From an uncultured Dehalococcoidia bacterium (GTDB lineage: Bacteria; Chloroflexota; Dehalococcoidia; Lucifugimonadales; UBA3495), in assembly GCA_950072105.1 (NCBI GenBank), contig CATMOE010000092.1:1-10607 (forward strand): a stretch of 10,607 nucleotides of DNA, given 5' to 3'. The position numbers were made by a program, and so were the translations under genes. Of the stretch, positions 2-10,607 are shown piece after piece. Within the stretch, counting starts at the first letter, position 1, and the number at the start of each line of letters is the position of its first letter. The notes below the pieces were generated by a model. The model made no database searches. It was not told the DNA's origin and worked only from the letters and a program-made list of their open reading frames with translations.

Positions 2-1129
2 CACGAAGCAGGGCGTCTCCTTTCCCGCTACGGCGGGATTCTTGGGGCCGCGGACCGTGACTATGAAGGGGCTCAACAGGCGCTGGGGCGGGCGATCGCC
101 ATCGCCAGGAGAGAGGAGGATGTGCCGCTGGAGATTCAGGCCTTAACCTATGCGGCCGATGTGAGCGGGCAACACCTCCACTGGCAAGAAAGCGTGGACA
201 ATGGGCTGCGGGCCATCGAACTGGCCGCGAGCATTGAAACTCCCCAGTCTGAGCTCCATTCCCGTTATTGGACGTCGATAAGTCTGCTTCACATGGGTGA
301 TCTGAACGCCGCCCGCCCCCACACGACCGTCATGCGAGACCTGGCTCAGAGTCGAAGGACGCCCAGAGAGCTTGCCGGCATCGGCTTTGCGCCGATCACA
401 ACCCTGTCGTGCCTTGAAGGCGACTGGAAAGCAGGCCGTGAATACAGCGACCAGGGCCTGGAGGTTTCACCCTTAAATCCGATACTCCTATCACCCCGAG
501 TTCTGTTGGAGCATCAAACGGGGGAGTCCGGGCAAGGCGAAATCTACCTGGAGCGGCTCCTGGAGACGATGCGCCTGGCCGGTCCAGATCAATCCCAGGC
601 GTCCGTCAGGGCGTCCATGGCCATCGCCGCGATAGCCCGAATCACCGGTGTCTCCTACCGATTGGAGATAGCCGAGGCAGCCGCCGAGGCAGTGCTCTCA
701 AACCAATCTGTCGCACCCCTTAACGTCATGTACGCCAGAGCCGGGTTGGCATTTCTTGCCGTGCAGAAAGGCGATCAGCCCGCGATAGAGGAGCAGTATA
801 GCTATTTTTCGAGCCATCAAGGCACGATGATATGGACGTTTGCGTCGGTAGACCGGCTGCTGGGTATCCTTTCCTAAGCGATGGGTCACTTGGACCAGTC
901 TGCCGGGCACTTTCAGGACGCGCTGGCGTTCTGCCGCAAAGCCAAGTACCAGCCCGAACTGGCCTGGACTTGCTTCGACTACGCCGATTCTCTTCGTGAG
1001 CGTCGTGGCGAAGGCGACCGGGCTAAGGCCATCACGCTACTGGACGAGTCCCTGACCATCTCCAGTGACCTGAGCATGCGTCCTCTGATGGAGCGGGTGC
1101 TGTCCCGGTGAGAGATACTGAAGGCGTAA
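2..1129 (+). pseudogene. 3' part (TPR-like helical region and conserved tail) of a kinase/AAA ATPase/TPR STAND-like gene, interrupted by in-frame TAA (875-877) and TGA (1109-1111); 5' end lies outside the window
   Basis: The frame is open from nt 2 (HEAGRLLSRYGGILG...AQQALGRAIAIARREED), matching HAAGRLLFRYGYVLG...AQKAVEAALAIAEREGD of the minus-strand paralogue. ORFs 122..877 and 881..1111 share this frame. Read through, it gives LLGILS*AMGHLDQSAGHF and MRPLMERVLSR*EILKA*, versus LLGLLAHTIGDLDQAAAHF and MRPLMERVLSRREILKA* in the paralogue. Confidence 0.85.
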
Positions 1130-1219: not shown

Positions 1220-3352
1220 ATGAACATGCAATCAACCATCATCGGTGCGCCGGTTCCTCAGATCGAGGGACCGGCAAAAGTCACGGGACGAACGCGCTAC
1301 GCCGCCGACGTGGATCTACCCGGAATGCTGTGGGGCAAGATTCTGCGCAGTCCCCATCCCCACGCGCGCATCCTTAGCATCGATGCCTCCGCAGCCTGGA
1401 GCGTCCCCGGCGTAAAGGCCGTGGTGACGGGACAGGACGCCCCCGGTCACTTGATGGGCAAGGTCCTTCGGGACATGCCCGTTCTTTGTTGGGATAAGGT
1501 TCGCTACATCGGCGACCGTGTGGCGGCGGTGGCCGCGGAGACCCTTGAAGCCGCCGAAGAAGCGATATTATTGATTGAGGTCGACTACGAGTTGCTGCCG
1601 GCGGTCTTCGACCCCATGGAGGCCATGAAACCGGATGCTCCCCTCATCCATGACGATATCGCGTCCTACCACGGCGCGCCTCTTGACGTTCTCGCAACGG
1701 ACGTGCACAACGGCCAAACCCGCCTCGCCTGGGAAAAAGGCGATCTGGCCGAGGGGTTCCGCCAGGCCGATGTCGTCTTGGAACACTCCTTTTCCGTCCC
1801 CAGCCGTCACCAGGGCTACCTTGAGCCCTTCGCCAGCGTCATATACATCGACGATGACGGCCGAATCCAAGCCTGGAGTTCCAGCAAAGCCCCATTCCGG
1901 GCGCGATTGCAACTGGCTCAGGCGATGGGCTTGCAGGACGAGGATATCCGGGTGAACGTCGTCTCGGTGGGGGGAGACTTTGGCGGAAAGGGAGACACTC
2001 GCGACCTTCCCGTCGCCTACCTGCTGGCGAAGATGACCGAGCGTCCGGTGAAGATCGTGATGAGCTATTGGGAAGAACTCACCGCCAGCAATCCCACCCA
2101 TCCCACCTTCGTAACGATTCGCTCGGGAATGACCAGGGATGGGCATCTGACCGCCCGTGAAGTCCGAACGGTCCACGCCAGCGGAGCCTATGGAGCCATG
2201 AAGCCCCGGTCGTTTCTCTCCACATCCCATTACGTCGGCGGAGGATACCGGATACCCAATACGTCCTTCGAATTTCTGCAGGTGTGCACCAATACCACGC
2301 CTGGTGGATACTTCAGAGCGCCGGGGGCTCACCAATACACCTTCGCCCTGGAATGTCACACCGACCTGCTGGCCCAGGAATTGGGGATGGACCCGGCTGA
2401 GTTCCGGCGGATAAACCTCGTCGATCCGGGCGATGAGGACGCCGTGGGCCGGCCCTTGCGCGTGGCGGACGTCCGTCCAGTATTGGAAGCCGCCCTGGAA
2501 GCGAGCCGTTGGGGAGAGCCAAATGGTGGACCGGGCCGCGGCAAGGGAGTCGCCATCTTCGGCCGTCAGATAGGCGGCGGCGCAGCGGGGGCCGTATTGA
2601 CCGCCGAGGCCGACGGCGCATTCACCGTCCTCAGTCCCACGGTGGACGTCGGCACGGGTACTCACACCATCGAGCAGCAGATGGTCGCCAACGAGATGGG
2701 GGTGCCGCTGTCCCAGGTGCGCGTGAGCCAGGGCGACACCGACAGCACGCCATTCGACGAAGGCCCCCGGGCCAGCAGAGTTACCTACACCGAAGGTCAA
2801 GCGGTGATGAAGGCCTGTGAGCAGATGCGGCAGGCGATCCAAGACGGAGCCAACCTCCCCCTGACGATCACCGTCGAGCACGATGCCCCGCAGCCGGAAG
2901 ATGTCATGTACTTCAGCGCTCAGGTAGCCGAGGTGGAAGTGGACCGGGAAACCGGTCAGGTAAAAGTGATCCGAGTGGTCACCGCCCATGACGTGGGCAC
3001 CATCATCAACCCGCTGGCGCATCAGGGACAGATCGACGGCGGATTCGTAACGGGTCTCGGCCTGGCAGTGACTGAGGAGTTAGTGACCGAGGATGGTCAG
3101 GTCCTTAACGGCAGTCTAGGAGATTATAAGCTGCCCACGATGTCGGACATCCCGCCCCTGGAGACGGTTCTGGTGCATACCGGCGGCGGAGAGGGACCGT
3201 ATCAAGCGAAGGCCATCGGAGAATTGGCTAACAATGCCACGGCAGCCGCCATCGCCAACGCAGTCGCCGATGCTGCAGGTGTCCACTTGTTCGAACTACC
3301 CATCACGGCGGAGAAAGTTTACGCGGCACTGGTTTCAAGCCGCGACAACTGA
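1220..3352 (+). CDS. Xanthine dehydrogenase/aldehyde oxidase family molybdopterin-binding (large) subunit
   Basis: Family motifs: KVTGRTRYAAD, LRSPHPHARI, DKVRYIGDRVAAVAA, YLEP, VGGDFGGK, FRAPG, DVGTGTHT, AHDVGTIINP, GQIDGG, DYKLPT, AKAIGE (catalytic Glu). Start is probably ATG 1220 or 1226 after AGAGAG (1211-1216), not GTG 1139. Confidence 0.95.
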   Translation: MNMQSTIIGAPVPQIEGPAKVTGRTRYAADVDLPGMLWGKILRSPHPHARILSIDASAAWSVPGVKAVVTGQDAPGHLMGKVLRDMPVLCWDKVRYIGDRVAAVAAETLEAAEEAILLIEVDYELLPAVFDPMEAMKPDAPLIHDDIASYHGAPLDVLATDVHNGQTRLAWEKGDLAEGFRQADVVLEHSFSVPSRHQGYLEPFASVIYIDDDGRIQAWSSSKAPFRARLQLAQAMGLQDEDIRVNVVSVGGDFGGKGDTRDLPVAYLLAKMTERPVKIVMSYWEELTASNPTHPTFVTIRSGMTRDGHLTAREVRTVHASGAYGAMKPRSFLSTSHYVGGGYRIPNTSFEFLQVCTNTTPGGYFRAPGAHQYTFALECHTDLLAQELGMDPAEFRRINLVDPGDEDAVGRPLRVADVRPVLEAALEASRWGEPNGGPGRGKGVAIFGRQIGGGAAGAVLTAEADGAFTVLSPTVDVGTGTHTIEQQMVANEMGVPLSQVRVSQGDTDSTPFDEGPRASRVTYTEGQAVMKACEQMRQAIQDGANLPLTITVEHDAPQPEDVMYFSAQVAEVEVDRETGQVKVIRVVTAHDVGTIINPLAHQGQIDGGFVTGLGLAVTEELVTEDGQVLNGSLGDYKLPTMSDIPPLETVLVHTGGGEGPYQAKAIGELANNATAAAIANAVADAAGVHLFELPITAEKVYAALVSSRDN

Positions 3353-3389: not shown

Positions 3390-3722
3390 ATGAGCATATA
3401 CCGTGTCTACCCCACAGATGATGGGGAAAGTCATATCGAAGAAGTCGATCTGGCCAATTATCCCGAGTTGAAAGCATTGATGCATGTCGCCCAGGTTGGA
3501 ATACACGAGTTTCCCGAACTGCGATTGATGGATTTCCATCCGCTGACCGAGCGAAGGCTAATCATCCATTTGCGGGGTGAGGTGGAGTTAGAGTTGAGCG
3601 ACGGGAGCAAACAGATATTCGGCCCCGGAGACGCCCGCCTCATGGAAGACATCCACGGCAAGGGACACCACCATCGAGATCTGAGCCCGGTGATACAAGC
3701 CGTGGTGGTGCTCGAAGACTGA
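3390..3722 (+). CDS. Small cupin-fold protein (110 aa)
   Basis: ATG at 3390 preceded by AGGAGAGAGG. Motifs DDGESH, FHP, LRGEVELELSDG, FGPGD..LMED..GKGH fit small cupin-barrel proteins. The ORF-track start at 3234 overlaps the upstream gene and is unlikely. Confidence 0.8.
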   Translation: MSIYRVYPTDDGESHIEEVDLANYPELKALMHVAQVGIHEFPELRLMDFHPLTERRLIIHLRGEVELELSDGSKQIFGPGDARLMEDIHGKGHHHRDLSPVIQAVVVLED

Positions 3723-3732
3723 ACTTAGTGGG

Positions 3733-4749
3733 CTAAACGTCGATCGAATAAACCCGCTTGGCGGTATCGTGGAACATAGCGGCTCGTTCCGAGGCTGAGT
3801 ATCCTTGGGACAGCCGCTTGAAGGCGTTAAAAATGACGTTGTACGAGTAGGATATCTTGTCCACCGGGAAGTTGCTCTCGAACATGCAACGGTCCGCGCC
3901 GAACTGTTCGATGCAGTGATTCATGAGGGGCGCCAGCGTACCGGCCAGCTCCTCCGACCCGACTGGGACATCTCGACCCGCCCAATCGTACCCGTACCGC
4001 GCCTGTCCCACGCCGCCCAGCTTCATGATTATGTTGGGACATTTGGCTGCGGTTGCCACTCCCCTGCGCCACTCGGCGAGCACCTCGTCATCCCGGTTGG
4101 CGTAAGGACCCACCCGTAGCAGCCCGCCGACATGGTTCAGCACAATGGTTAGATCCGGCACGGCGTTGGCGAAATCGGCCAACTCATCCAATTGGGGGAA
4201 GTACAGGGAGTTTTCCAGCACTAACCCCATCTGGGCCATGACTCTGGCGCCGGCGCGGTAACCGTCGGAGCCCAGGACGCCCCGTATCTCCCGGTCCACC
4301 ACGTCGGGGCTGGAGTCCCAACCCACCGAGTGGCGGACGCCTCGAAAACGGTTGGGGCTGGCGGCCTGGAGCGCTTCGAGGACCGGCCGCACTCCCTCGC
4401 CCATCTTCAAGTCGGCCTTGCCGATGATTGCGGCGGCGGCCCGGCCCGGTCCGTGGGCGCCACTGGCGCTTTCATCGGCGATCTTCTGAACAAACTCCAC
4501 CTCGCCCACCGGCCGCATCTCCTCGGGACCGTCCGTCCGGTATTCGGCCCTGACTTCGATAAACACCGTGGAGCGGACGTTGTGGCCGCTGTTGATGTCC
4601 GCCGCCAACTCCGGCAACAGGTATTCCTGGTACGCCAGCGGCTCGGGCCGGTGCGTCCACAGGTGGTGGTGCGGGTCGCAGATGGGCAACTCCGGCTCCA
4701 AAGTGGCTTCCTGAGTCTGCGCCAGCCAGGCGGCGTCTCCTATGGGCAT
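3733..4749 (-). CDS. Amidohydrolase family protein (Amidohydro_2 / lactonase-like TIM barrel)
   Basis: ICDPHHHLW metal-binding motif, RFRGVRH, IVLNHVG, PNIIMKLGG, FGADRCMFESNFPVDK and C-terminal FHDTAKRVY. GGAGG RBS lies upstream of ATG 4749. Confidence 0.93.
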   Translation of the reverse strand: MPIGDAAWLAQTQEATLEPELPICDPHHHLWTHRPEPLAYQEYLLPELAADINSGHNVRSTVFIEVRAEYRTDGPEEMRPVGEVEFVQKIADESASGAHGPGRAAAAIIGKADLKMGEGVRPVLEALQAASPNRFRGVRHSVGWDSSPDVVDREIRGVLGSDGYRAGARVMAQMGLVLENSLYFPQLDELADFANAVPDLTIVLNHVGGLLRVGPYANRDDEVLAEWRRGVATAAKCPNIIMKLGGVGQARYGYDWAGRDVPVGSEELAGTLAPLMNHCIEQFGADRCMFESNFPVDKISYSYNVIFNAFKRLSQGYSASERAAMFHDTAKRVYSIDV

Positions 4750-4878
4750 GGTTGATCCTCCGTTGTGATGGTCCTCGGTCAGGCGAGGCGGCGGGGAATT
4801 TATAGTCTACAGGCGTTTTTCTGTGCGCTTCTTACTTCAATTTGACACAGCATCTAGTTAATTGTGACCGATAAAAAT

Positions 4879-4959
4879 CACCCCCATCCTAACCTCCCCC
4901 CGTAAAGGGGGAAGGGATTTGTCCTCGATCCCTTTACGGGGGAGAGTTAGAGAGGGGTG
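4879..4959. repeat. Inverted doublet of REP-like palindromic units (REPIN/BIME-like), intergenic
   Basis: Unit 1 (4879-4917) is CACCCCCATCCTAACCTCCCCCCGTAAAGGGGGAAGGGA. The reverse complement of 4921-4959 is CACCCCTCTCTAACTCTCCCCCGTAAAGGGATCGAGGAC. Both share CACCCC..CTAAC..CCCCCGTAAAGGG, and unit 1 has an internal CCCCC/GGGGG hairpin. Confidence 0.8.
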
Positions 4960-4997
4960 CAGGTTGATTCATCAAAATTATCTAGTAACAGTACTAA

Positions 4998-6722
4998 CTA
5001 AACGTCTTCCACCGCCACCGTAGCTATCCCATAAGTACCGTAGAAGAAGTGGGCGTAGTGGGTTGAACCGCCGGTGACGAAGAGCAGGTATTGCTCCGGG
5101 CTTTCCAACGCGGGGATGGTCGCCTTGGGGTCTTCCTCCAGGTGTTGAAGCTCGGGATGGTTCAGCCACTTGCCGTCGGCGTCCTTGGGAACTCCTCGGG
5201 CGCCGATGGCGTCTTGTACGGAAATACGGCACTTTTCGTGGAGCCAGGCTTGGGCGTCCTGCTTGCTCATCCCGGCCTCGGCCATGATGACGGCGCGAGA
5301 CGGGCTGAGGATGATGGGATGGTAGGGGCCCTGATAGGGCACTCTCTTGTTGGTGTGGCCGACCTGGGCGGACTGCCAACCCCTAATCCAGCCTCCGGCG
5401 CCGGCGTTCTTGTAGAACATCATCGAGGCGATGTTATTCAGGGTGTCCTCATGGGACCGGGAAGTGGAATCGATGACCGTCGTCGGACCGGTGACGGTGA
5501 CAACGGTGACCGCGCTCTCGTCTCGCTGGAACCCCATATCCATATGGTAGGGCTGCCAGGGACTGACCTCTTCGTTCTCGGCGATGCACATCCCGAACTT
5601 GGACGGCAGGCCGACGAAGTTGGGGTCTCCCGCCCCGGCGTTGCAGTAGCCGATATTGATCAGGCACAGCCGCAGCGCCCGGCCGATGGCCGTGTTCGCG
5701 CTGTTGATGACACCCGGGCCCATGGCCGTAGTCCCAAAGTTTAGACCAGCTTTCTTGGCGATGGGGCCGTTCACCAGGATTATGGGCGCTTCCGTGTGGC
5801 CGGAGACCTGCATGTCCCGGTGGTTCATCTCCGGTTTGGCCAGGCAGTCGATGGCGGCAAGGAGAACCGGGAATTGCTCCGGCCGGCAGCCTGCCATGAC
5901 GGCGTTGATGGCGATCTTCTCGACCGTCGCCAGCCCAAAGCCGGGCTCCATGACCAACACCACGTCCTGAGGGGCTCGTTTGGTCCCCTTGAGCATCTGC
6001 TCGACGGCGGCCGGAGTGGGCGGCATTACCGGGATGCCGTCGCTCCAGTCCCGTTCCGCTAAGAAACGGTTCACTGCGTCCAGACCCTCCGGTGTTTCGT
6101 CCATCTCCACGGTGAAGGTCTCGGTGGCTTGGCCACCGGCCCTGGCCTTCCGGACATTCCCTGACGTAGCGGGAATCGTGGTGAGACCACGGATGATGTC
6201 GTCGATCTGCTCGTCCACCATCTTGTTTATGAAGTCCGCCTGCTGACCGGTGGTGGCGTGGGGAATGGTGACGAAGGCGGTATTGGGCTGTCCCCATCCG
6301 TCAACGCAGGATTGCCAAGCTCTAGCAAAGCTTCGGGCGGCGATGGCTACGGCGGGAACGCCTGCCTTCTCGACGGCAACCATGTCGTGGGCAAGCCACG
6401 ACGTGCAGCCCCCTCAATGAGCGGTTGCGCCGACCATGGCGTCGATCTCCTTGGCGATCAGCGCCCCTTCCTCATCATCGATATGATTCCCCCGGCTTAG
6501 GGCGGGACGGCCGGACCTGAGGTCGCCGCCGTACCTCTCGAACTTGACGTTGGGGAAGCGCTCGCTGATGCGCATGGCCACCCGTTCAACGGCGATATCC
6601 GCGCCGCCGGTCATGTTGTTGTACAGGCCGATGGTCTTGCCCTCAAGGCTGGCCAGGCGAGGGGCTGGCGGGACCTTGAAATCGACTCTGTCCGCCGCCG
6701 GGGACATGATCTGCAACTTCAT
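4998..6722 (-). CDS. Probable selenoprotein, 574 aa with Sec103: UGSC-family-like N-terminal domain (UGGC motif) fused to a large conserved domain of unknown function
   Basis: ORF 6414..6722 (AGGAG RBS) ends in TGA at 6416-6414, in frame with ATG 6383 (33 nt apart, no other stop). Read-through gives GATAH-U-GGCTSWLAHDMVAVEKAGVPAV. A hairpin follows the UGA, and ATG 6383 has no RBS. C-terminal motifs include WSDGIPVMPPT, TVEKIAINAVMAGC, ANTAIGRALRL and AENEEVSPW. Confidence 0.88.
6375..6413 (-). promoter_or_regulatory. Putative bacterial SECIS element immediately 3' of the in-frame UGA
   Basis: mRNA reads UGA-GGG-GGCUG-CAC-GUCGUGG-CUUGC-CCACGAC-AUG-GUUGCC. GUCGUGG/CCACGAC (6402-6396 / 6390-6384) is a perfect 7-bp stem, extendable by CA/UG and GGC/GCC. 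The apical loop begins 17-18 nt after the UGA. Confidence 0.7.
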
Positions 6723-6738
6723 CCTGTTTCTCCTATCG

Positions 6739-7170
6739 CTACCAGGTTAGGTTGGGGACTCTTTCCTGTAAAACCTCGCCGAACAGCGTCAACACCTGGT
6801 CTATCCTGAGAACAACTATGGCCACTTCTATATCCGGCGGTGGCATCCCGGACTCGGCCAACCGCCCCATCACTTCGTCATAAATCGGACCATCTCGATG
6901 TACGGTTGCGGTGCAGCGAAACTTCCACCCCACTTCCTGTCCCGAGTCACGGAACAGGACAACTACCTTGGGATCCGTTTCGATGTGATCCAAGGGCCGG
7001 CGGCCGCTGCGATCGCGGTACGCCAGCGACGCATCGTCGTACGCCAACACGGTGCCGATGAATCCGGCGTTGGGAGTGCCATCGGGCGAGGCCGTAGCGA
7101 CGATGCATGGATTCCCGCTGGCTCGGGCGCCGTTGACGAGTTCGCGCATTTCATCAGTCAAATGAATCAT
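6739..7170 (-). CDS. Pyridoxamine 5'-phosphate oxidase-like split-barrel flavin/deazaflavin-binding protein
   Basis: 143 aa with CIVATASPDGTPN, DHIETDPKVVVLF and WKFRCTATVH, the typical beta-strand pattern of PNPOx-like proteins. Its stop is 16 nt before the selenoprotein start. Confidence 0.82.
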   Translation of the reverse strand: MIHLTDEMRELVNGARASGNPCIVATASPDGTPNAGFIGTVLAYDDASLAYRDRSGRRPLDHIETDPKVVVLFRDSGQEVGWKFRCTATVHRDGPIYDEVMGRLAESGMPPPDIEVAIVVLRIDQVLTLFGEVLQERVPNLTW

Positions 7171-7415: not shown

Positions 7416-10400
7416 TTACGCCTTAAGTATTTCCCGCCGGGACAGCACCCGCTCCATCAGGGGCCGCATACCAAGTTCGCTGGAGATGGCCAGGGACTCG
7501 TCCAGCAGGGACATGGCCTTGGCCCGGTCCCCCTCACCGTTACGCTGGAGGAGGGTGTCAGCATAGTCGCAGCAAGTCCAGGCCAGTTCGACGCGGTAAC
7601 CAGCGCGGCAGAACGACAAAGCGTCTTCAAAGTGGGCCGCCGCTTGGTCCAAGTCGCCGATTGTGTGGGCGAGAAGGCCCAGCAGCCTCTCGAAGCACAT
7701 TATGCCTTGAACCGGCATCCCCCGATGCCCGGGTTCTAGGAAATCGTACAGATCTGCAGCGGTCTTAGCATCTTGCCGGTTTACAGCCATTAGTGCCAGA
7801 CTGATTCGGATCGCATGGGTTATTACCGGGGCAGCAGTTGAGTCTGATAGAACGGCTTCCCCTGCTCTCTGAGCTATCGGAACCCGGCCAACGTCGCCGG
7901 TAATGCGGGCTACGTAGGGAATAATCAAGGCGGCGAACGAGTGGGCCGTAGGGGCGGAGCCCATAAAATCCAAAAGTTCACCCAGGTAATGGTCTCCTTG
8001 GTCGATGTTCCCTAGCTCGCGCTCCAGTGCCGTAAAGCGGTCGAGAAGTCCAGAAAATCCCGGAGATACCGCTAAGCCTCGTTCACCGAGGTGCCGAGCG
8101 TTCTGCCAGTCCCCCATCGAATGGTGCACGATCATGTTGTAGTGAAACGCCATGGCCTGGGAGTTCCCGCCGCGGAGCCGTTCCGACCCAATTAGCATGG
8201 CGGCGGCATGTTGCTGGGCGCCCTCCAGGTCCCCTTTGCAATAAAGGGCTAACGTAATGTCACCTTTGGCCCTTACTTGGACCATGAGGTCATCGGACGC
8301 CGTGGCTAGCTCCAAAGCCCGCTGGCTTTTCTTAAGCCATTCGTCAAAATTGAGATTGTACCGGTCGACCCTGGCGGCATCGGCCAAGATTCTCATCTCT
8401 AGGCCTAGATCTCCCTCCCGCTCCGCGATGGCCAATGCCGCTTCTACCGCCTTCTGAGCGCCGTTGAAATCGCCTGCCTCCAAGCCCAAGACGTAACCAT
8501 AGCGGAAGAGCAGCCGGCCCGCAGCGTGGGAATCGGGTGGCACCAGGGATAAGGCTCGGGAAATCAAGTTGGAAATCCCGGTGTCACCACCAGAAACCGA
8601 TTCGTATGGGTATTCCGCAACGGATACAGCCTTCTCCACATCCCCAGCGGCAACGAAGTAGTCGAAAGCCCGCCTCAAAGAAACCACCGGTTCATGAAAT
8701 TCAAGCCTGTCGACGGTGGACAACATGGCGCGCCCTTGCCCAAACAATAGGGCTGCGGCCTCTTTATCCGCCGCAGGCTCAGAACCGGTCAGCGCGACGC
8801 CTTTGGCCGTCAGCCCCCGCTGGAAATGAGTCTGCGCCTCTTCCCAGGCAAACGCGGCCAGGGCACGGTCCCCTGCCAGCAACGAATACCGGACCAGCCG
8901 GTCTGACCCTAAAACGGTTTGGGCTTCGGCAAAGTGGAAAGCCAGCTCTGCGGCATGGCATTCGGCCTCCTCGCCATAAGCCTCTTCAAGGGATTCGGCG
9001 ATTCGGGCGTGAAGCCGCACCTTCCTGGTGGTGGACAGTTCCCCGGCCAGGGTCTCCTTAATCAGGGCATGGGTGAACTGATAGCGCCCCACCGTGCTTG
9101 TCATCTCTTCGATGACCCGCGACGCCAGCGCCTCCTCCAGCACCTCCAGCAGCCGGTCGTCACTTACGTCTTCGATTAAGGGCCGTAGGTGTTCCAGAGT
9201 GAATTCCCGGCCAATGACCGACGCAATGGTCAGGGTTTCGTTGCAACGCTCCGACAACCGGTCCAGCCGCCGTCCAATGACCTCTCTCACGCCTTCGGGG
9301 ATGCGGACGCTCCAAGAATCCCGCTGACCGGCCTTCTCCGGGGTCAGTTCCCCTTCCTGCACCAGCAGCCGCACCACTTCGGTGACGAACAGTGGGTTTC
9401 CTTCGGTCTGCCGATGCACCGCTTCCACCATGCCCTGGGGTGGTGCGATGCCCGAGACCAACTCGATGAACCGGCCCACGTCTTCCTGAGTCAGTCCCCT
9501 TAACAACACCCGCTGGAATAGCCTATCCCGGTTCAGCTCTCCCAAGGTCAGGGAAAGGGGATGCCTACGGGACAGTTCCATATCCCGATAGGTCCCAATG
9601 ACCAAAAGACGGCTGCCAGGTAGCTCACGAGCCACAAACTCCAACAACAGCAGCGATGGATGGTCCGCCCAGTGAAGATCGTCCAGCACCAACACCAAAG
9701 GTTGGCGTTGCGAGGCGCTTTTCAGAAAGGCGGTCATGGAGTCGAATAATCTGAACCGGGCTTGCTCCGGTTCCAATTCCGGCGGCGCCGCTAGACCTGG
9801 CAGTTTTTCCGAGACGTCGGACACTATCCCGGCGATGTTCGCCGCTCCGGCGCCCATCTCCGATCTCAGCTCCTCCGGGTCTTTGTCCCGCACATAGGAC
9901 CGGATCGCCTGGACCCAAGGCCAGTAGGGAGGCGCGCCCTCTCCTTCGTAGCAGCGGCCCCACAAAACCTGGGCATGGCGCAGTCCAGCGTAGGTTGCTA
10001 ACTCCTGGGCGGTTCGGGATTTCCCGATACCCGGTTCACCAACCAGGGTCAGCAAACGACCCCGGCCAGAAAGAGCGTCTTCCAACGCGGCTTTTAGATC
10101 GCCCATCTCCTGTTGCCGCCCGACGAAAACGCCCCCGGCCAGGCTGTCCACGGCGTGGGCTTCGTTGTCCCGTAGGGGCGCATGGCCATGCGCCCCTACG
10201 TCCGCGTCTGCCAGGTCTATGGCGTCTAGGGCGGACAGTACGTCGGTGGCCGACTCGGGGCGTTCGGACGGGTCCTTGGCGAGTAACCGCAGGATGAGGG
10301 CATCCAAGGCCCGTGGACACTGCCCGTTGTGCCAGGTGGGGGCTACCGGCGGGGTGTTGATGTGCTGGCCGATGATTGCTACCGAATCGTCTCCCAGGAA

Positions 10401-10517
10401 GGGAGGTCTGCCCGTCACCATCTCGTAGAGCATGGCCCCCAAGGAGTACAGGTCGGACCGGGGCGTTACCTCTCCGCCCATGGCTTGCTCGGGCGGCATG
10501 TAGGACACGGTAGTCAT
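7416..10517 (-). CDS. STAND-like protein: truncated Ser/Thr kinase C-lobe, AAA_16-type ATPase and TPR-like helical region (possibly a 5'-truncated pseudogene)
   Basis: Kinase subdomains VIII-XI are present (TVSYMPPEQ, RSDLYSLGAMLYEMVTGRPPF, LLAKDPSERP). Also FVGRQQE, Walker A GEPGIGKS (10040-10017), Walker B LVLVLDDLHWAD, TEGNPLFVTE and YQFTHALI. No GxGxxG, AxK, HRD or DFG upstream. Start uncertain: ATG 10517, ATG 10499 or GTG 10592. Confidence 0.85.
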   Translation of the reverse strand: MTTVSYMPPEQAMGGEVTPRSDLYSLGAMLYEMVTGRPPFLGDDSVAIIGQHINTPPVAPTWHNGQCPRALDALILRLLAKDPSERPESATDVLSALDAIDLADADVGAHGHAPLRDNEAHAVDSLAGGVFVGRQQEMGDLKAALEDALSGRGRLLTLVGEPGIGKSRTAQELATYAGLRHAQVLWGRCYEGEGAPPYWPWVQAIRSYVRDKDPEELRSEMGAGAANIAGIVSDVSEKLPGLAAPPELEPEQARFRLFDSMTAFLKSASQRQPLVLVLDDLHWADHPSLLLLEFVARELPGSRLLVIGTYRDMELSRRHPLSLTLGELNRDRLFQRVLLRGLTQEDVGRFIELVSGIAPPQGMVEAVHRQTEGNPLFVTEVVRLLVQEGELTPEKAGQRDSWSVRIPEGVREVIGRRLDRLSERCNETLTIASVIGREFTLEHLRPLIEDVSDDRLLEVLEEALASRVIEEMTSTVGRYQFTHALIKETLAGELSTTRKVRLHARIAESLEEAYGEEAECHAAELAFHFAEAQTVLGSDRLVRYSLLAGDRALAAFAWEEAQTHFQRGLTAKGVALTGSEPAADKEAAALLFGQGRAMLSTVDRLEFHEPVVSLRRAFDYFVAAGDVEKAVSVAEYPYESVSGGDTGISNLISRALSLVPPDSHAAGRLLFRYGYVLGLEAGDFNGAQKAVEAALAIAEREGDLGLEMRILADAARVDRYNLNFDEWLKKSQRALELATASDDLMVQVRAKGDITLALYCKGDLEGAQQHAAAMLIGSERLRGGNSQAMAFHYNMIVHHSMGDWQNARHLGERGLAVSPGFSGLLDRFTALERELGNIDQGDHYLGELLDFMGSAPTAHSFAALIIPYVARITGDVGRVPIAQRAGEAVLSDSTAAPVITHAIRISLALMAVNRQDAKTAADLYDFLEPGHRGMPVQGIMCFERLLGLLAHTIGDLDQAAAHFEDALSFCRAGYRVELAWTCCDYADTLLQRNGEGDRAKAMSLLDESLAISSELGMRPLMERVLSRREILKA
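10171..10200. repeat. Perfect 30-bp palindrome, GTAG-type REP-like element inside a coding region
   Basis: CGTAGGGGCGCATGGCCATGCGCCCCTACG is identical to its own reverse complement and has GTAG/CTAC ends. It lies in the kinase-ATPase linker and translates as (D)VGAHGHAPL(R). Confidence 0.85.
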
Positions 10518-10607
10518 ATTGATATTAGACACACAAAAAACTGGATTGAGCGTTCGGGGATGCGGTGAGGCTGCGTACCGCCCACCGCCCACTCATGTTG
10601 CACCATT

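What the first reader, a model, noticed from the sequence alone, without database searches (positions are those of the whole stretch)
6340..6430. Sec segment has the spacing of glycine/proline reductase selenoprotein B (GrdB/PrdB)
Seen: U-G-G-C-T-S-W-L-A-H-D-M-V-A-V-E-K-A-G-V-P-A-V, with TIPH further on. Known (from memory): the GrdB active-site region reads approximately U-G-T-C-T-R-C-G-A-T-M-V-K-E-I-E-R-A-G-I-P-V-V and later IPHP. UxxCT and E-x-A-G-[IV]-P align without gaps (E at position 16, P at 21, counting Sec as 1). Inference: this is not a thioredoxin fold but a distant GrdB/PrdB-like catalytic module. It may use a selenolate for reductive bond cleavage of an unknown substrate, with the fused domain as partner subunit.
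Basis: partly seen in the sequence, partly recalled or inferred. Interest (0 to 1): 0.75.

Follow-up and report, generated by a model that had tools for sequence, protein, structure and literature searches.

The report
UGSC selenoprotein resembles glycine reductase GrdB
This marine bacterial gene belongs to a catalogued selenium-protein family of unknown function that papers describe as thioredoxin-like; its selenium domain is instead predicted to be a distant relative of the reactive domain of glycine and proline reductases, capped by a fused unnamed partner domain, so it is likely a selenium-dependent reductase whose substrate is still unidentified.

Summary
The motif lies in a 574-aa gene (6722-4998, minus strand) with one in-frame UGA at residue 103, a conserved SECIS-like hairpin, and selA/B/C/D in the genome. 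Residues 5-181 are the known UGSC family (PF24696). Residues ~200-574 are the unnamed 'Unknown_1' domain reported fused to UGSC in 2008.

The GrdB link holds. HHalign of UGSC against the GrdB Sec domain gives 97.5% (95% against GrdB+PrdB with UxxCT masked; unrelated controls 0.2-9.6%). Genome-wide profile searches find each other first. AlphaFold models of both show the same five strand-helix order, with Sec capping helix 3; this is not a thioredoxin order. A Cys homologue modelled as two chains docks the partner over the Sec site (score 0.89, controls 0.00).

It is not a GrdB/PrdB member: it scores far below the family cut-offs, and its partner is unrelated to GrdE/PrdA.

Best reading: a selenol/thiol reductase recharged by thioredoxin reductase. 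The chemistry is inferred and the substrate is unknown. The genome has 12 paralogous modules. I did not find the GrdB link in the papers searched; this scan noted it before in other genomes and on other pieces of this one.

The parts
4998..6722 (-). Full gene, 574 aa with UGA read as Sec at residue 103; UGSC domain fused to partner domain
   Evidence: 24 of 25 matches at E<=1e-100 in 60 genomes carry one TGA and the remaining match is a C-terminal fragment
6730..6734 (-). Shine-Dalgarno-like AGGAG, 7 nt before the ATG at 6722
   Evidence: sequence
6180..6710 (-). UGSC domain (residues 5-181); predicted five-stranded alternating strand-helix (flavodoxin/Rossmann-like) fold; remote relative of the GrdB/PrdB Sec domain
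   Evidence: PF24696 99.1 bits vs cut-off 25; model; HHalign
6414..6416 (-). In-frame UGA, predicted Sec103, at the end of strand 3 and start of helix 3
   Evidence: Cys at this column in 25 of 36 stop-free homologues
6405..6407 (-). Cys106 of the UxxC motif, predicted resolving cysteine
   Evidence: sequence; Cys in 23 of 36 stop-free homologues
6384..6402 (-). SECIS-like hairpin: 7-bp stem with a G-containing 5-nt loop, starting 11 nt after UGA
   Evidence: each pair kept in 22-23 of 23 full-length fused homologues, one compensatory change
6348..6416 (-).
6258..6269 (-). TIPH (152-155), aligned with GrdB's AIPH after strand 5
5001..6125 (-). Partner domain ('Unknown_1', residues ~200-574); no Pfam or NCBIfam family; invariant AVMAGC motif (Cys279); predicted to dock over the Sec site
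5358..5417 (-). Insertion of up to ~20 residues (436-455 region), longer than in the 10 other partner paralogues aligned; the equivalent stretch in the Cys homologue lies in the predicted interface (possible lid)

Best explanation
The gene encodes, by predicted UGA read-through, a two-domain selenoprotein whose UGSC domain is likely a distant relative of the GrdB/PrdB selenocysteine domain and whose fused partner domain is predicted to cap that site, so that it likely works as a selenol/thiol-dependent reductase of a small organic substrate that is not yet identified. Steps: (1) Sec is inserted at codon 103 through the hairpin (strongly inferred). (2) The domain folds as five alternating strands and helices, with Sec at the N-cap of helix 3 as in GrdB (predicted). 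(3) The partner closes over Sec103 and selects and polarises the substrate, taking the place of the pyruvoyl subunit GrdE/PrdA, to which it is unrelated (docking predicted, role inferred). (4) The selenolate attacks the substrate, and Cys106 releases the product, leaving a Se-S bond as proposed for PrdB (inferred by analogy, untested). (5) A thioredoxin / thioredoxin-reductase system re-reduces the site (inferred from gene fusions in distant relatives). The 12 paralogues would serve different substrates (inferred).
For: Sec: one TGA at the same motif in 24 of 25 related loci and in 12 of 12 genome paralogues. Cys in 25 of 36 stop-free homologues. Hairpin kept, with Ser TCG in 21 of 23 vs 13% elsewhere and Thr ACG in 22 of 23 vs 22%. 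tRNA-Sec, selA, selB and selD are present. GrdB kinship: 7 of 12 UGSC domains list TIGR01917, best E 1.2e-5 over profile positions 333-410. HHalign gives 96.5-97.5% over 95-151 columns, and 95.1% with UxxCT masked. Controls: reversed GrdB 7.8%, GrdB N-domain 1.9%, GrdE 9.6%, HGD-D 2.5%. In 16,213 genome segments the top 3 non-family hits of the UGSC profile are the 3 GrdB-like genes, and the top 4 of the GrdB profile are UGSC. The two models have the same element order and both carry a 16-residue helix right after Sec. Docking: full-length model pTM 0.93. A Cys homologue split in two scores 0.89 vs best control 0.00; the mark was reached by 116 of 157 solved complexes and 2 of 215 mismatched pairs; runs agree in at least 88% of contacts; partner pLDDT at least 87; the Sec-equivalent Cys is in the interface list. 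All 12 UGSC genes have a partner gene fused or within ~0.6 kb, one cut by a contig end. Electron supply: 6 of 15 longer homologues of the partner carry a pyridine-nucleotide disulfide reductase domain, and all 4 of those scanned hit TIGR01292 best. The PrdB cycle is taken from passages of PMC3091704.
Against: No activity or substrate is known. Ortholog neighbourhoods are not conserved and paralogue neighbours are miscellaneous. The single-profile signal falls to E 0.08 and 0.42 when the motif is masked, and other proteins then outrank UGSC in the GrdB search. With the whole 21-residue segment masked HHalign drops to 62%, the level GrdB reaches against the non-selenium HGD-D family (61%), so much of the signal sits in one helix of a very common fold. 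The window's own domain hits TIGR01917 only at E 0.03, and 5 of 12 paralogues do not list it. No GrdB structure was found in the PDB by sequence and the two models could not be superposed directly. The reductase fusions are in relatives only 34-36% identical; this window has no such gene and only 2 of the 11 other loci have one nearby. Ser replaces Sec/Cys in 5 of 36 stop-free homologues.
Confidence: 0.5

Rival explanations
1. Same fold and docking, but the enzyme is a general selenol oxidoreductase (peroxide, sulfoxide, disulfide or persulfide reduction) with no carbon-heteroatom cleavage; the partner only selects the oxidised substrate.
For: UxxC motif; thioredoxin-reductase fusions; a thioredoxin-like N-terminal region on partner homologue P0258, judged by eye; a cited paper title reports peroxidase activity of GrdB (reference list of PMC3091704; paper not read); no pyruvoyl-type partner to activate an amine.
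Against: Twelve divergent paralogues per genome with variable interface loops suggest many specific substrates. A 370-residue cap over the Sec is more than peroxidases usually need (general knowledge).
Confidence: 0.27
2. U103/C106 (plus the third Cys in some paralogues) ligate a metal or Fe-S cluster at the domain interface, and catalysis is metal-based.
Against: UGSC itself scores 2.5% against HGD-D. The third Cys is Trp or Gly in 7 of 12 paralogues, including this one. The partner's invariant Cys279 is not in the interface list (an unlisted residue is uncertain).
Confidence: 0.12
3. The resemblance to GrdB is convergent: a UxxC placed at the same helix start of a common Rossmann/flavodoxin-like fold, with unrelated function.
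Against: Reciprocal top ranking in a whole genome; 95% with the redox motif masked; collinear match from helix 2 to helix 5 including the IPH after strand 5; same-fold controls score 2-10%.
Confidence: 0.08
4. UGSC is a thioredoxin-fold redox protein, as stated in print, or the TGA is a true stop between two genes.
For: [quoted passage not shown] All 120 listed database homologues are called as 447-462-aa proteins that lack the N-terminal part. The hairpin has no unusual folding energy over 97 nt (z -0.11).
Against: A confident model (pLDDT 93.9) with strictly alternating strands and helices, and Sec after the third strand. Continuous Cys homologues. A stop would cut the Pfam domain in half. 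Synonymous-site conservation of the stem.
Confidence: 0.03

Closest known systems
UGSC family (seleno)protein, Pfam PF24696 / NCBIfam NF041046; 'UGSC/Unknown_1' fusion of Zhang & Gladyshev 2008 (PMC2398784, Fig. S1A)
   Same: Whole domain matched (PF24696 positions 2-171 of 172, 99.1 bits); UxxC; fused to a domain with the AVMAGC motif shown in the Unknown_1 alignment.
   Different: Motif reads UGGC; scores 86-89 bits against the NF041046 cut-off of 125; the partner has a longer loop at the predicted interface. The paper assigns a likely thioredoxin fold, which the model contradicts.
Glycine/sarcosine/betaine reductase selenoprotein B (GrdB, GrdF, GrdH; TIGR01917/TIGR01918) with GrdE/G/I
   Same: Same predicted element order, Sec position, UxxC[T], E-x-x-G-[IV]-P spacing and IPH; HHalign 97.5%.
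   Different: No ~215-residue N-terminal GrdB region and no insertion after strand 1; third Cys is Trp; partner unrelated to GrdE; no grdE-like gene on any contig carrying a UGSC gene; GrdB and PrdB-like profiles match each other at 99.9%, far closer than either matches UGSC.
D-proline reductase PrdB (TIGR04483) with pyruvoyl PrdA and PrdC
   Same: Single Sec domain with UxxC only; proposed internal Se-S resolution (PMC3091704 passages); HHalign 89.4% to a 34-sequence set that is mostly PrdB-like.
   Different: No PrdA-type partner; no prd-type neighbours seen; the window's domain does not list TIGR04483.
Fluoroacetate reductase FarB/FarE (PMC10838667)
   Same: Precedent that a GrdB-type Sec subunit is predicted to cleave a non-amine bond (C-F) with a partner lacking the pyruvoyl-forming cysteines (passages).
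   Different: FarB and FarE are direct GrdB and GrdE homologues; this partner is not.

Membership tests
UGSC family (PF24696) | Score above the Pfam gathering threshold over the whole domain | tested here: met
   99.1 bits vs 25, positions 2-171 of 172
UGSC family (NF041046 equivalog) | Score above the curated cut-off of 125 bits | tested here: not met
   86 bits, 89 bits for the domain alone; 8 of the 11 other paralogues pass. A divergent subfamily.
Bacterial selenoprotein | Conserved in-frame UGA, Cys homologues, downstream hairpin with G in the loop, Sec machinery in the genome | tested here: met
   loop-G criterion from PMC1088965 passage
Bacterial selenoprotein | Selenium shown in the protein | not testable with these tools
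   needs 75Se labelling or mass spectrometry
GrdB/GrdF/GrdH | Family HMM score above cut-off (TIGR01918 65.45, TIGR01917 602.2, PF07355 22) | tested here: not met
   TIGR01917 13.2 bits; TIGR01918 and PF07355 not listed for the window domain
GrdB/GrdF/GrdH | UxxCxxC motif | tested here: not met
   UxxCxxW here; UxxCxxC in 5 of 12 paralogues
GrdB/PrdB | GrdE/PrdA-type (PF09338) partner subunit | tested here: not met
   partner vs 24 GrdE-like sequences 0.2%; the 3 PF09338 genes of this genome sit beside the 3 GrdB-like genes
GrdB/PrdB Sec-domain superfamily (works-like claim) | Profile similarity beyond same-fold controls, with Sec in register | tested here: met
GrdB/PrdB Sec-domain superfamily (works-like claim) | Same three-dimensional fold | tested here: inconclusive
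   Same element order in two confident models and 14 of the top-50 PDB entries shared (counted by hand), but no direct superposition was possible and the fold is common
GrdB/PrdB Sec-domain superfamily (works-like claim) | Selenoether intermediate and reductive C-N cleavage | not testable with these tools
   needs enzymology
Thioredoxin fold | beta-alpha-beta plus beta-beta-alpha order, with the redox motif after the first core strand (definition recalled) | tested here: not met
   DSSP on the model gives strict strand-helix alternation over residues 30-181, with Sec after the third strand; a prediction, not a solved structure
Thioredoxin fold | Structural match to solved thioredoxins | tested here: inconclusive
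   lists are filled by flavodoxin/Rossmann-like chains; an unlisted family is not excluded

The most novel reading that the evidence does not exclude
UGSC plus its partner is a third, unrecognised branch of the GrdB/PrdB selenoenzyme superfamily. A domain with no catalogued family replaces the pyruvoyl subunit. The branch is expanded up to 22-fold in SAR202-type marine Chloroflexota, where it would be a thioredoxin-driven, selenium-dependent toolkit for reductively cleaving carbon-heteroatom bonds in dissolved organic matter.
Probability: 0.35. Interest if true: 0.82.

Novelty: new variant of a known kind. Interest (0 to 1): 0.58.

Why it matters
[quoted passage not shown] Re-filing it from 'thioredoxin-like' to the GrdB/PrdB superfamily, and identifying the partner as the cap over the Sec site, changes what to assay: covalent Se-substrate intermediates with a thioredoxin system, using the two-domain protein. 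This naturally fused gene is a convenient single-chain test case. The family is in 35 of 35 same-family genomes searched, at 1-22 copies, and the 120 closest database entries all lack the Sec-containing part, so a major enzyme family of these ocean bacteria is hidden from standard annotation.

Tried and rejected
PDB sequence searches gave nothing significant for the protein, its profile (one designed protein at E 0.03) or GrdB.

Partner vs GrdE: 0.2%, rejected. The first attempt used a loosely extracted GrdE set and was redone by coordinates. Partner vs GrdB Sec domain 1.4%; UGSC vs partner 0.3%.

Neighbourhood as a substrate clue led nowhere. The upstream PNPOx-like gene recurs in 2, and the downstream amidohydrolase in 2, of 24 other loci with 1.5-kb flanks. 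Among 81 flanking ORFs the largest cluster has 4 members.

Folding energy of the 97 nt after UGA is unremarkable; only the conserved 7-bp stem counts.

Expression is not shown. Six RNA runs hold 55-77% of the gene's words. Three laid RNA runs have contigs across the UGA, but also across the flanking genes, and DNA carry-over is not excluded.

Rows dropped: L040 (truncated) and L043 (fragment) from the hairpin count; L061 (broken) from the first GrdB/PrdB profile; L165 (no hit) and 52 of 122 extracted sequences, thinned canonical GrdB, from the larger profile; L050 from the alignment used for folding.

Literature searches: 'UGSC'+'selenoprotein' (9 papers); 'UGSC'/'PF24696'/'NF041046' since 2019 (11); 'GrdB'+'selenoprotein'+'AlphaFold'+'fold' (2); 'SAR202'+'selenocysteine' (3). 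None of the passages read links UGSC to GrdB/PrdB. The Pfam/InterPro entry text and subscription journals were not available.

Full report
Observation. With TGA read as Sec, the two minus-strand ORFs 6722-6414 and 6383-4998 become one 574-residue ORF with a single recoded codon at residue 103. The recalled GrdB motif is correct: locus L057 shows it in full, and 80 of 80 GTDB loci fetched with a GrdB alignment read U-G-T-C-T. A strict spacing pattern has 9 hits in 16,213 genome segments (8 UGSC, 1 PrdB-like), against 0.05 expected from shuffles.

It is a selenoprotein gene (strong inference). In 60 genomes searched, the window's own included, 23 hold a match at E<=1e-100. Of the 25 matches, 24 have one TGA at the same motif and the other is a fragment. 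Among 36 stop-free homologues of 520-600 aa, the column holds Cys in 25, Ser in 5 and something else in 6. A 7-bp hairpin begins 11 nt after UGA. In 23 full-length fused homologues each pair is kept in 22-23, one pair varies G-C 15 / G-U 6 / A-U 2, and the Ser and Thr codons in the stem are TCG in 21 of 23 and ACG in 22 of 23, against 13% and 22% elsewhere in the same genes. These genomes are kin and not independent, and the folding energy alone is unremarkable. The genome has tRNA-Sec, selA, selB and selD. Names on homologues point to Chloroflexota/SAR202, and the runs that hold the gene are marine, vent or subsurface metagenomes.

What it is. Residues 5-181 match Pfam PF24696 UGSC (99.1 bits vs 25) and NF041046 below its cut-off (86 vs 125). 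Residues ~200-574 match no family in either library. [quoted passage not shown] The 2026 review (PMC13188914, passages) still gives no function. The genome has 12 UGSC genes, all with the TGA, each fused to or within ~0.6 kb of a partner gene, in either order. UGSC is in 48 of 60 genomes searched and in 35 of 35 same-family genomes, at 1-22 copies. All 120 listed close database homologues are called without the Sec-containing part.

Testing the GrdB link by sequence. Seven of the 12 UGSC domains list the GrdB model TIGR01917 (best E 1.2e-5, profile positions 333-410; window domain E 0.03), and five do not. A profile of 63 UGSC domains against 21 GrdB/PrdB Sec domains gives HHalign 96.5% over 151 columns, and 85.9% with UxxCT masked. 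With 70 sequences it gives 96.8% over 95 columns, 95.1% masked, 97.5% against GrdB-type alone and 89.4% against PrdB-like alone. Controls give 7.8% (reversed GrdB), 1.9% (GrdB N-domain), 9.6% (GrdE) and 2.5% (HGD-D). In a genome-wide search the two profiles find each other first among non-members (E 1.7e-4 to 3.3e-3, and 1.2e-5 to 1.1e-3).

Against the link: those single-profile hits fall to E 0.08 and 0.42 when the motif is masked. Masking the whole 21-residue segment leaves 62%, equal to GrdB vs HGD-D (61%). The signal is therefore specific but concentrated around the active-site helix. GrdB-type and PrdB-like profiles match each other at 99.9%, so UGSC lies outside both.

The partner. A natural Cys homologue (P0129, 39% identical) modelled as two chains scored 0.89 against a best control of 0.00. 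The mark was reached by 116 of 157 solved and 2 of 215 mismatched pairs (counts approximate with my own alignment); runs agree in at least 88% of contacts; partner pLDDT is at least 87. The interface includes the N-terminal strand and the Sec-equivalent Cys with the start of helix 3. This supports docking but does not show it, and two halves of a fused protein are expected to pair. The partner is unrelated to GrdE/PrdA (0.2%), and the genome's 3 GrdE-like genes lie beside its 3 GrdB-like genes. Interface-side loops vary among paralogues, and this subfamily has a longer loop at 436-455. Among 15 longer homologues of the partner, 6 carry a disulfide-reductase domain, and the 4 scanned hit thioredoxin reductase best, below cut-off. 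The partner's fold is left open because it was not folded alone.

Mechanism. Shown by sequence: the gene, motif, family, paralogue pairing and Sec machinery. Predicted: the fold, the Sec position and the capping. Inferred: the catalytic cycle. By analogy with the PrdB cycle described in PMC3091704 (passages), the selenolate attacks a substrate held by the partner, Cys106 releases the product with formation of a Se-S bond, and a thioredoxin system resets it. FarB/FarE (PMC10838667, passages) is precedent for a GrdB-type subunit predicted to act on a non-amine without a pyruvoyl group. I put this reading at 0.5, a general peroxide/sulfoxide/disulfide reductase at 0.27, metal or Fe-S ligation at 0.12, convergence at 0.08, and thioredoxin fold or true stop at 0.03. 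Neighbourhoods give no substrate.

Novelty. The family and the fusion are in print. The GrdB kinship, the non-thioredoxin fold and the capping by the partner were not found in the searches, nor in passages of PMC1976440, PMC9312934, PMC9908766, PMC1088965 and bioRxiv 10.1101/2022.07.06.499078. The main text of a SAR202 pangenome paper has no word starting 'seleno' (PMC6946804). The Pfam entry text was not seen and may comment on the fold. This scan's notes had reached the same reading in at least 10 genomes and on other pieces of this one. They are not independent support; they prompted my search for reductase fusions.

Verdict: a real, divergent fused UGSC selenoprotein that likely shares ancestry and active-site design with GrdB/PrdB but is not a member of either family. 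New variant of a known kind; interest 0.58.

Noticed in passing
window 4876-4960: Palindromic intergenic repeat just downstream of the gene (predicted -51 kcal/mol hairpin); 60 blastn hits in the genome; REP-like dispersed element.
   Followed up: partly
window 122-1111 (+): TPR-type ORF interrupted by an in-frame TAA at 875-877; 41% identical over 328 aa to the C-terminal part of the kinase-AAA-TPR gene at 7416-10592. That gene has 26 tblastn hits in the genome.
   Followed up: partly
window 7416-10592 (-): Ser/Thr kinase-AAA-TPR gene whose kinase match starts mid-domain (Pfam positions 158-257 of 263) near the end of the window; truncated, or an assembly edge.
   Followed up: no
window 1223-3352 (+), 3390-3722 (+), 3733-4749 (-), 6739-7170 (-): Neighbours: xanthine-dehydrogenase-family Mo subunit, small cupin/pirin-like protein (weak hit), Amidohydro_2 enzyme, PNPOx-like protein that ends 16 nt before the start codon. 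Not conserved beside most orthologues.
   Followed up: yes
L001, L002, L003 (G000 C45, C78, C13); L216 (C28): The genome also has three GrdB-like selenoproteins (two with UxxS in place of UxxC), each beside a GrdE-like gene, and one GrdA.
   Followed up: partly
L004-L007 (G000 C105, C140, C31, C25); L155-L184: PrdB-like selenoproteins (U-P-x-C), some with a long C-terminal extension; common in relatives (TIGR04483 hits in 37 of 60 genomes, GrdB domains included), while GrdE/PrdA-type genes are in only 15 of 60. The C140 copy looks frameshifted.
   Followed up: partly
L077 vs L217-L246: The GrdB Sec domain aligns to the C-terminal domain of HGD-D (2-hydroxyacyl-CoA dehydratase) proteins at 61%, with their conserved Cys next to GrdB's Sec; a possible deeper link between the families.
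   Followed up: partly
P0273-P0287, P0258: The partner domain also occurs fused to thioredoxin reductase (6 of 15), to an AMP-binding ligase (1 of 15) and to a thioredoxin-like N-terminal region (P0258).
   Followed up: partly
L214 (G000 C60:2148-3071): The genome's selD itself has an in-frame TGA, so it is likely a Sec-type SelD.
   Followed up: no
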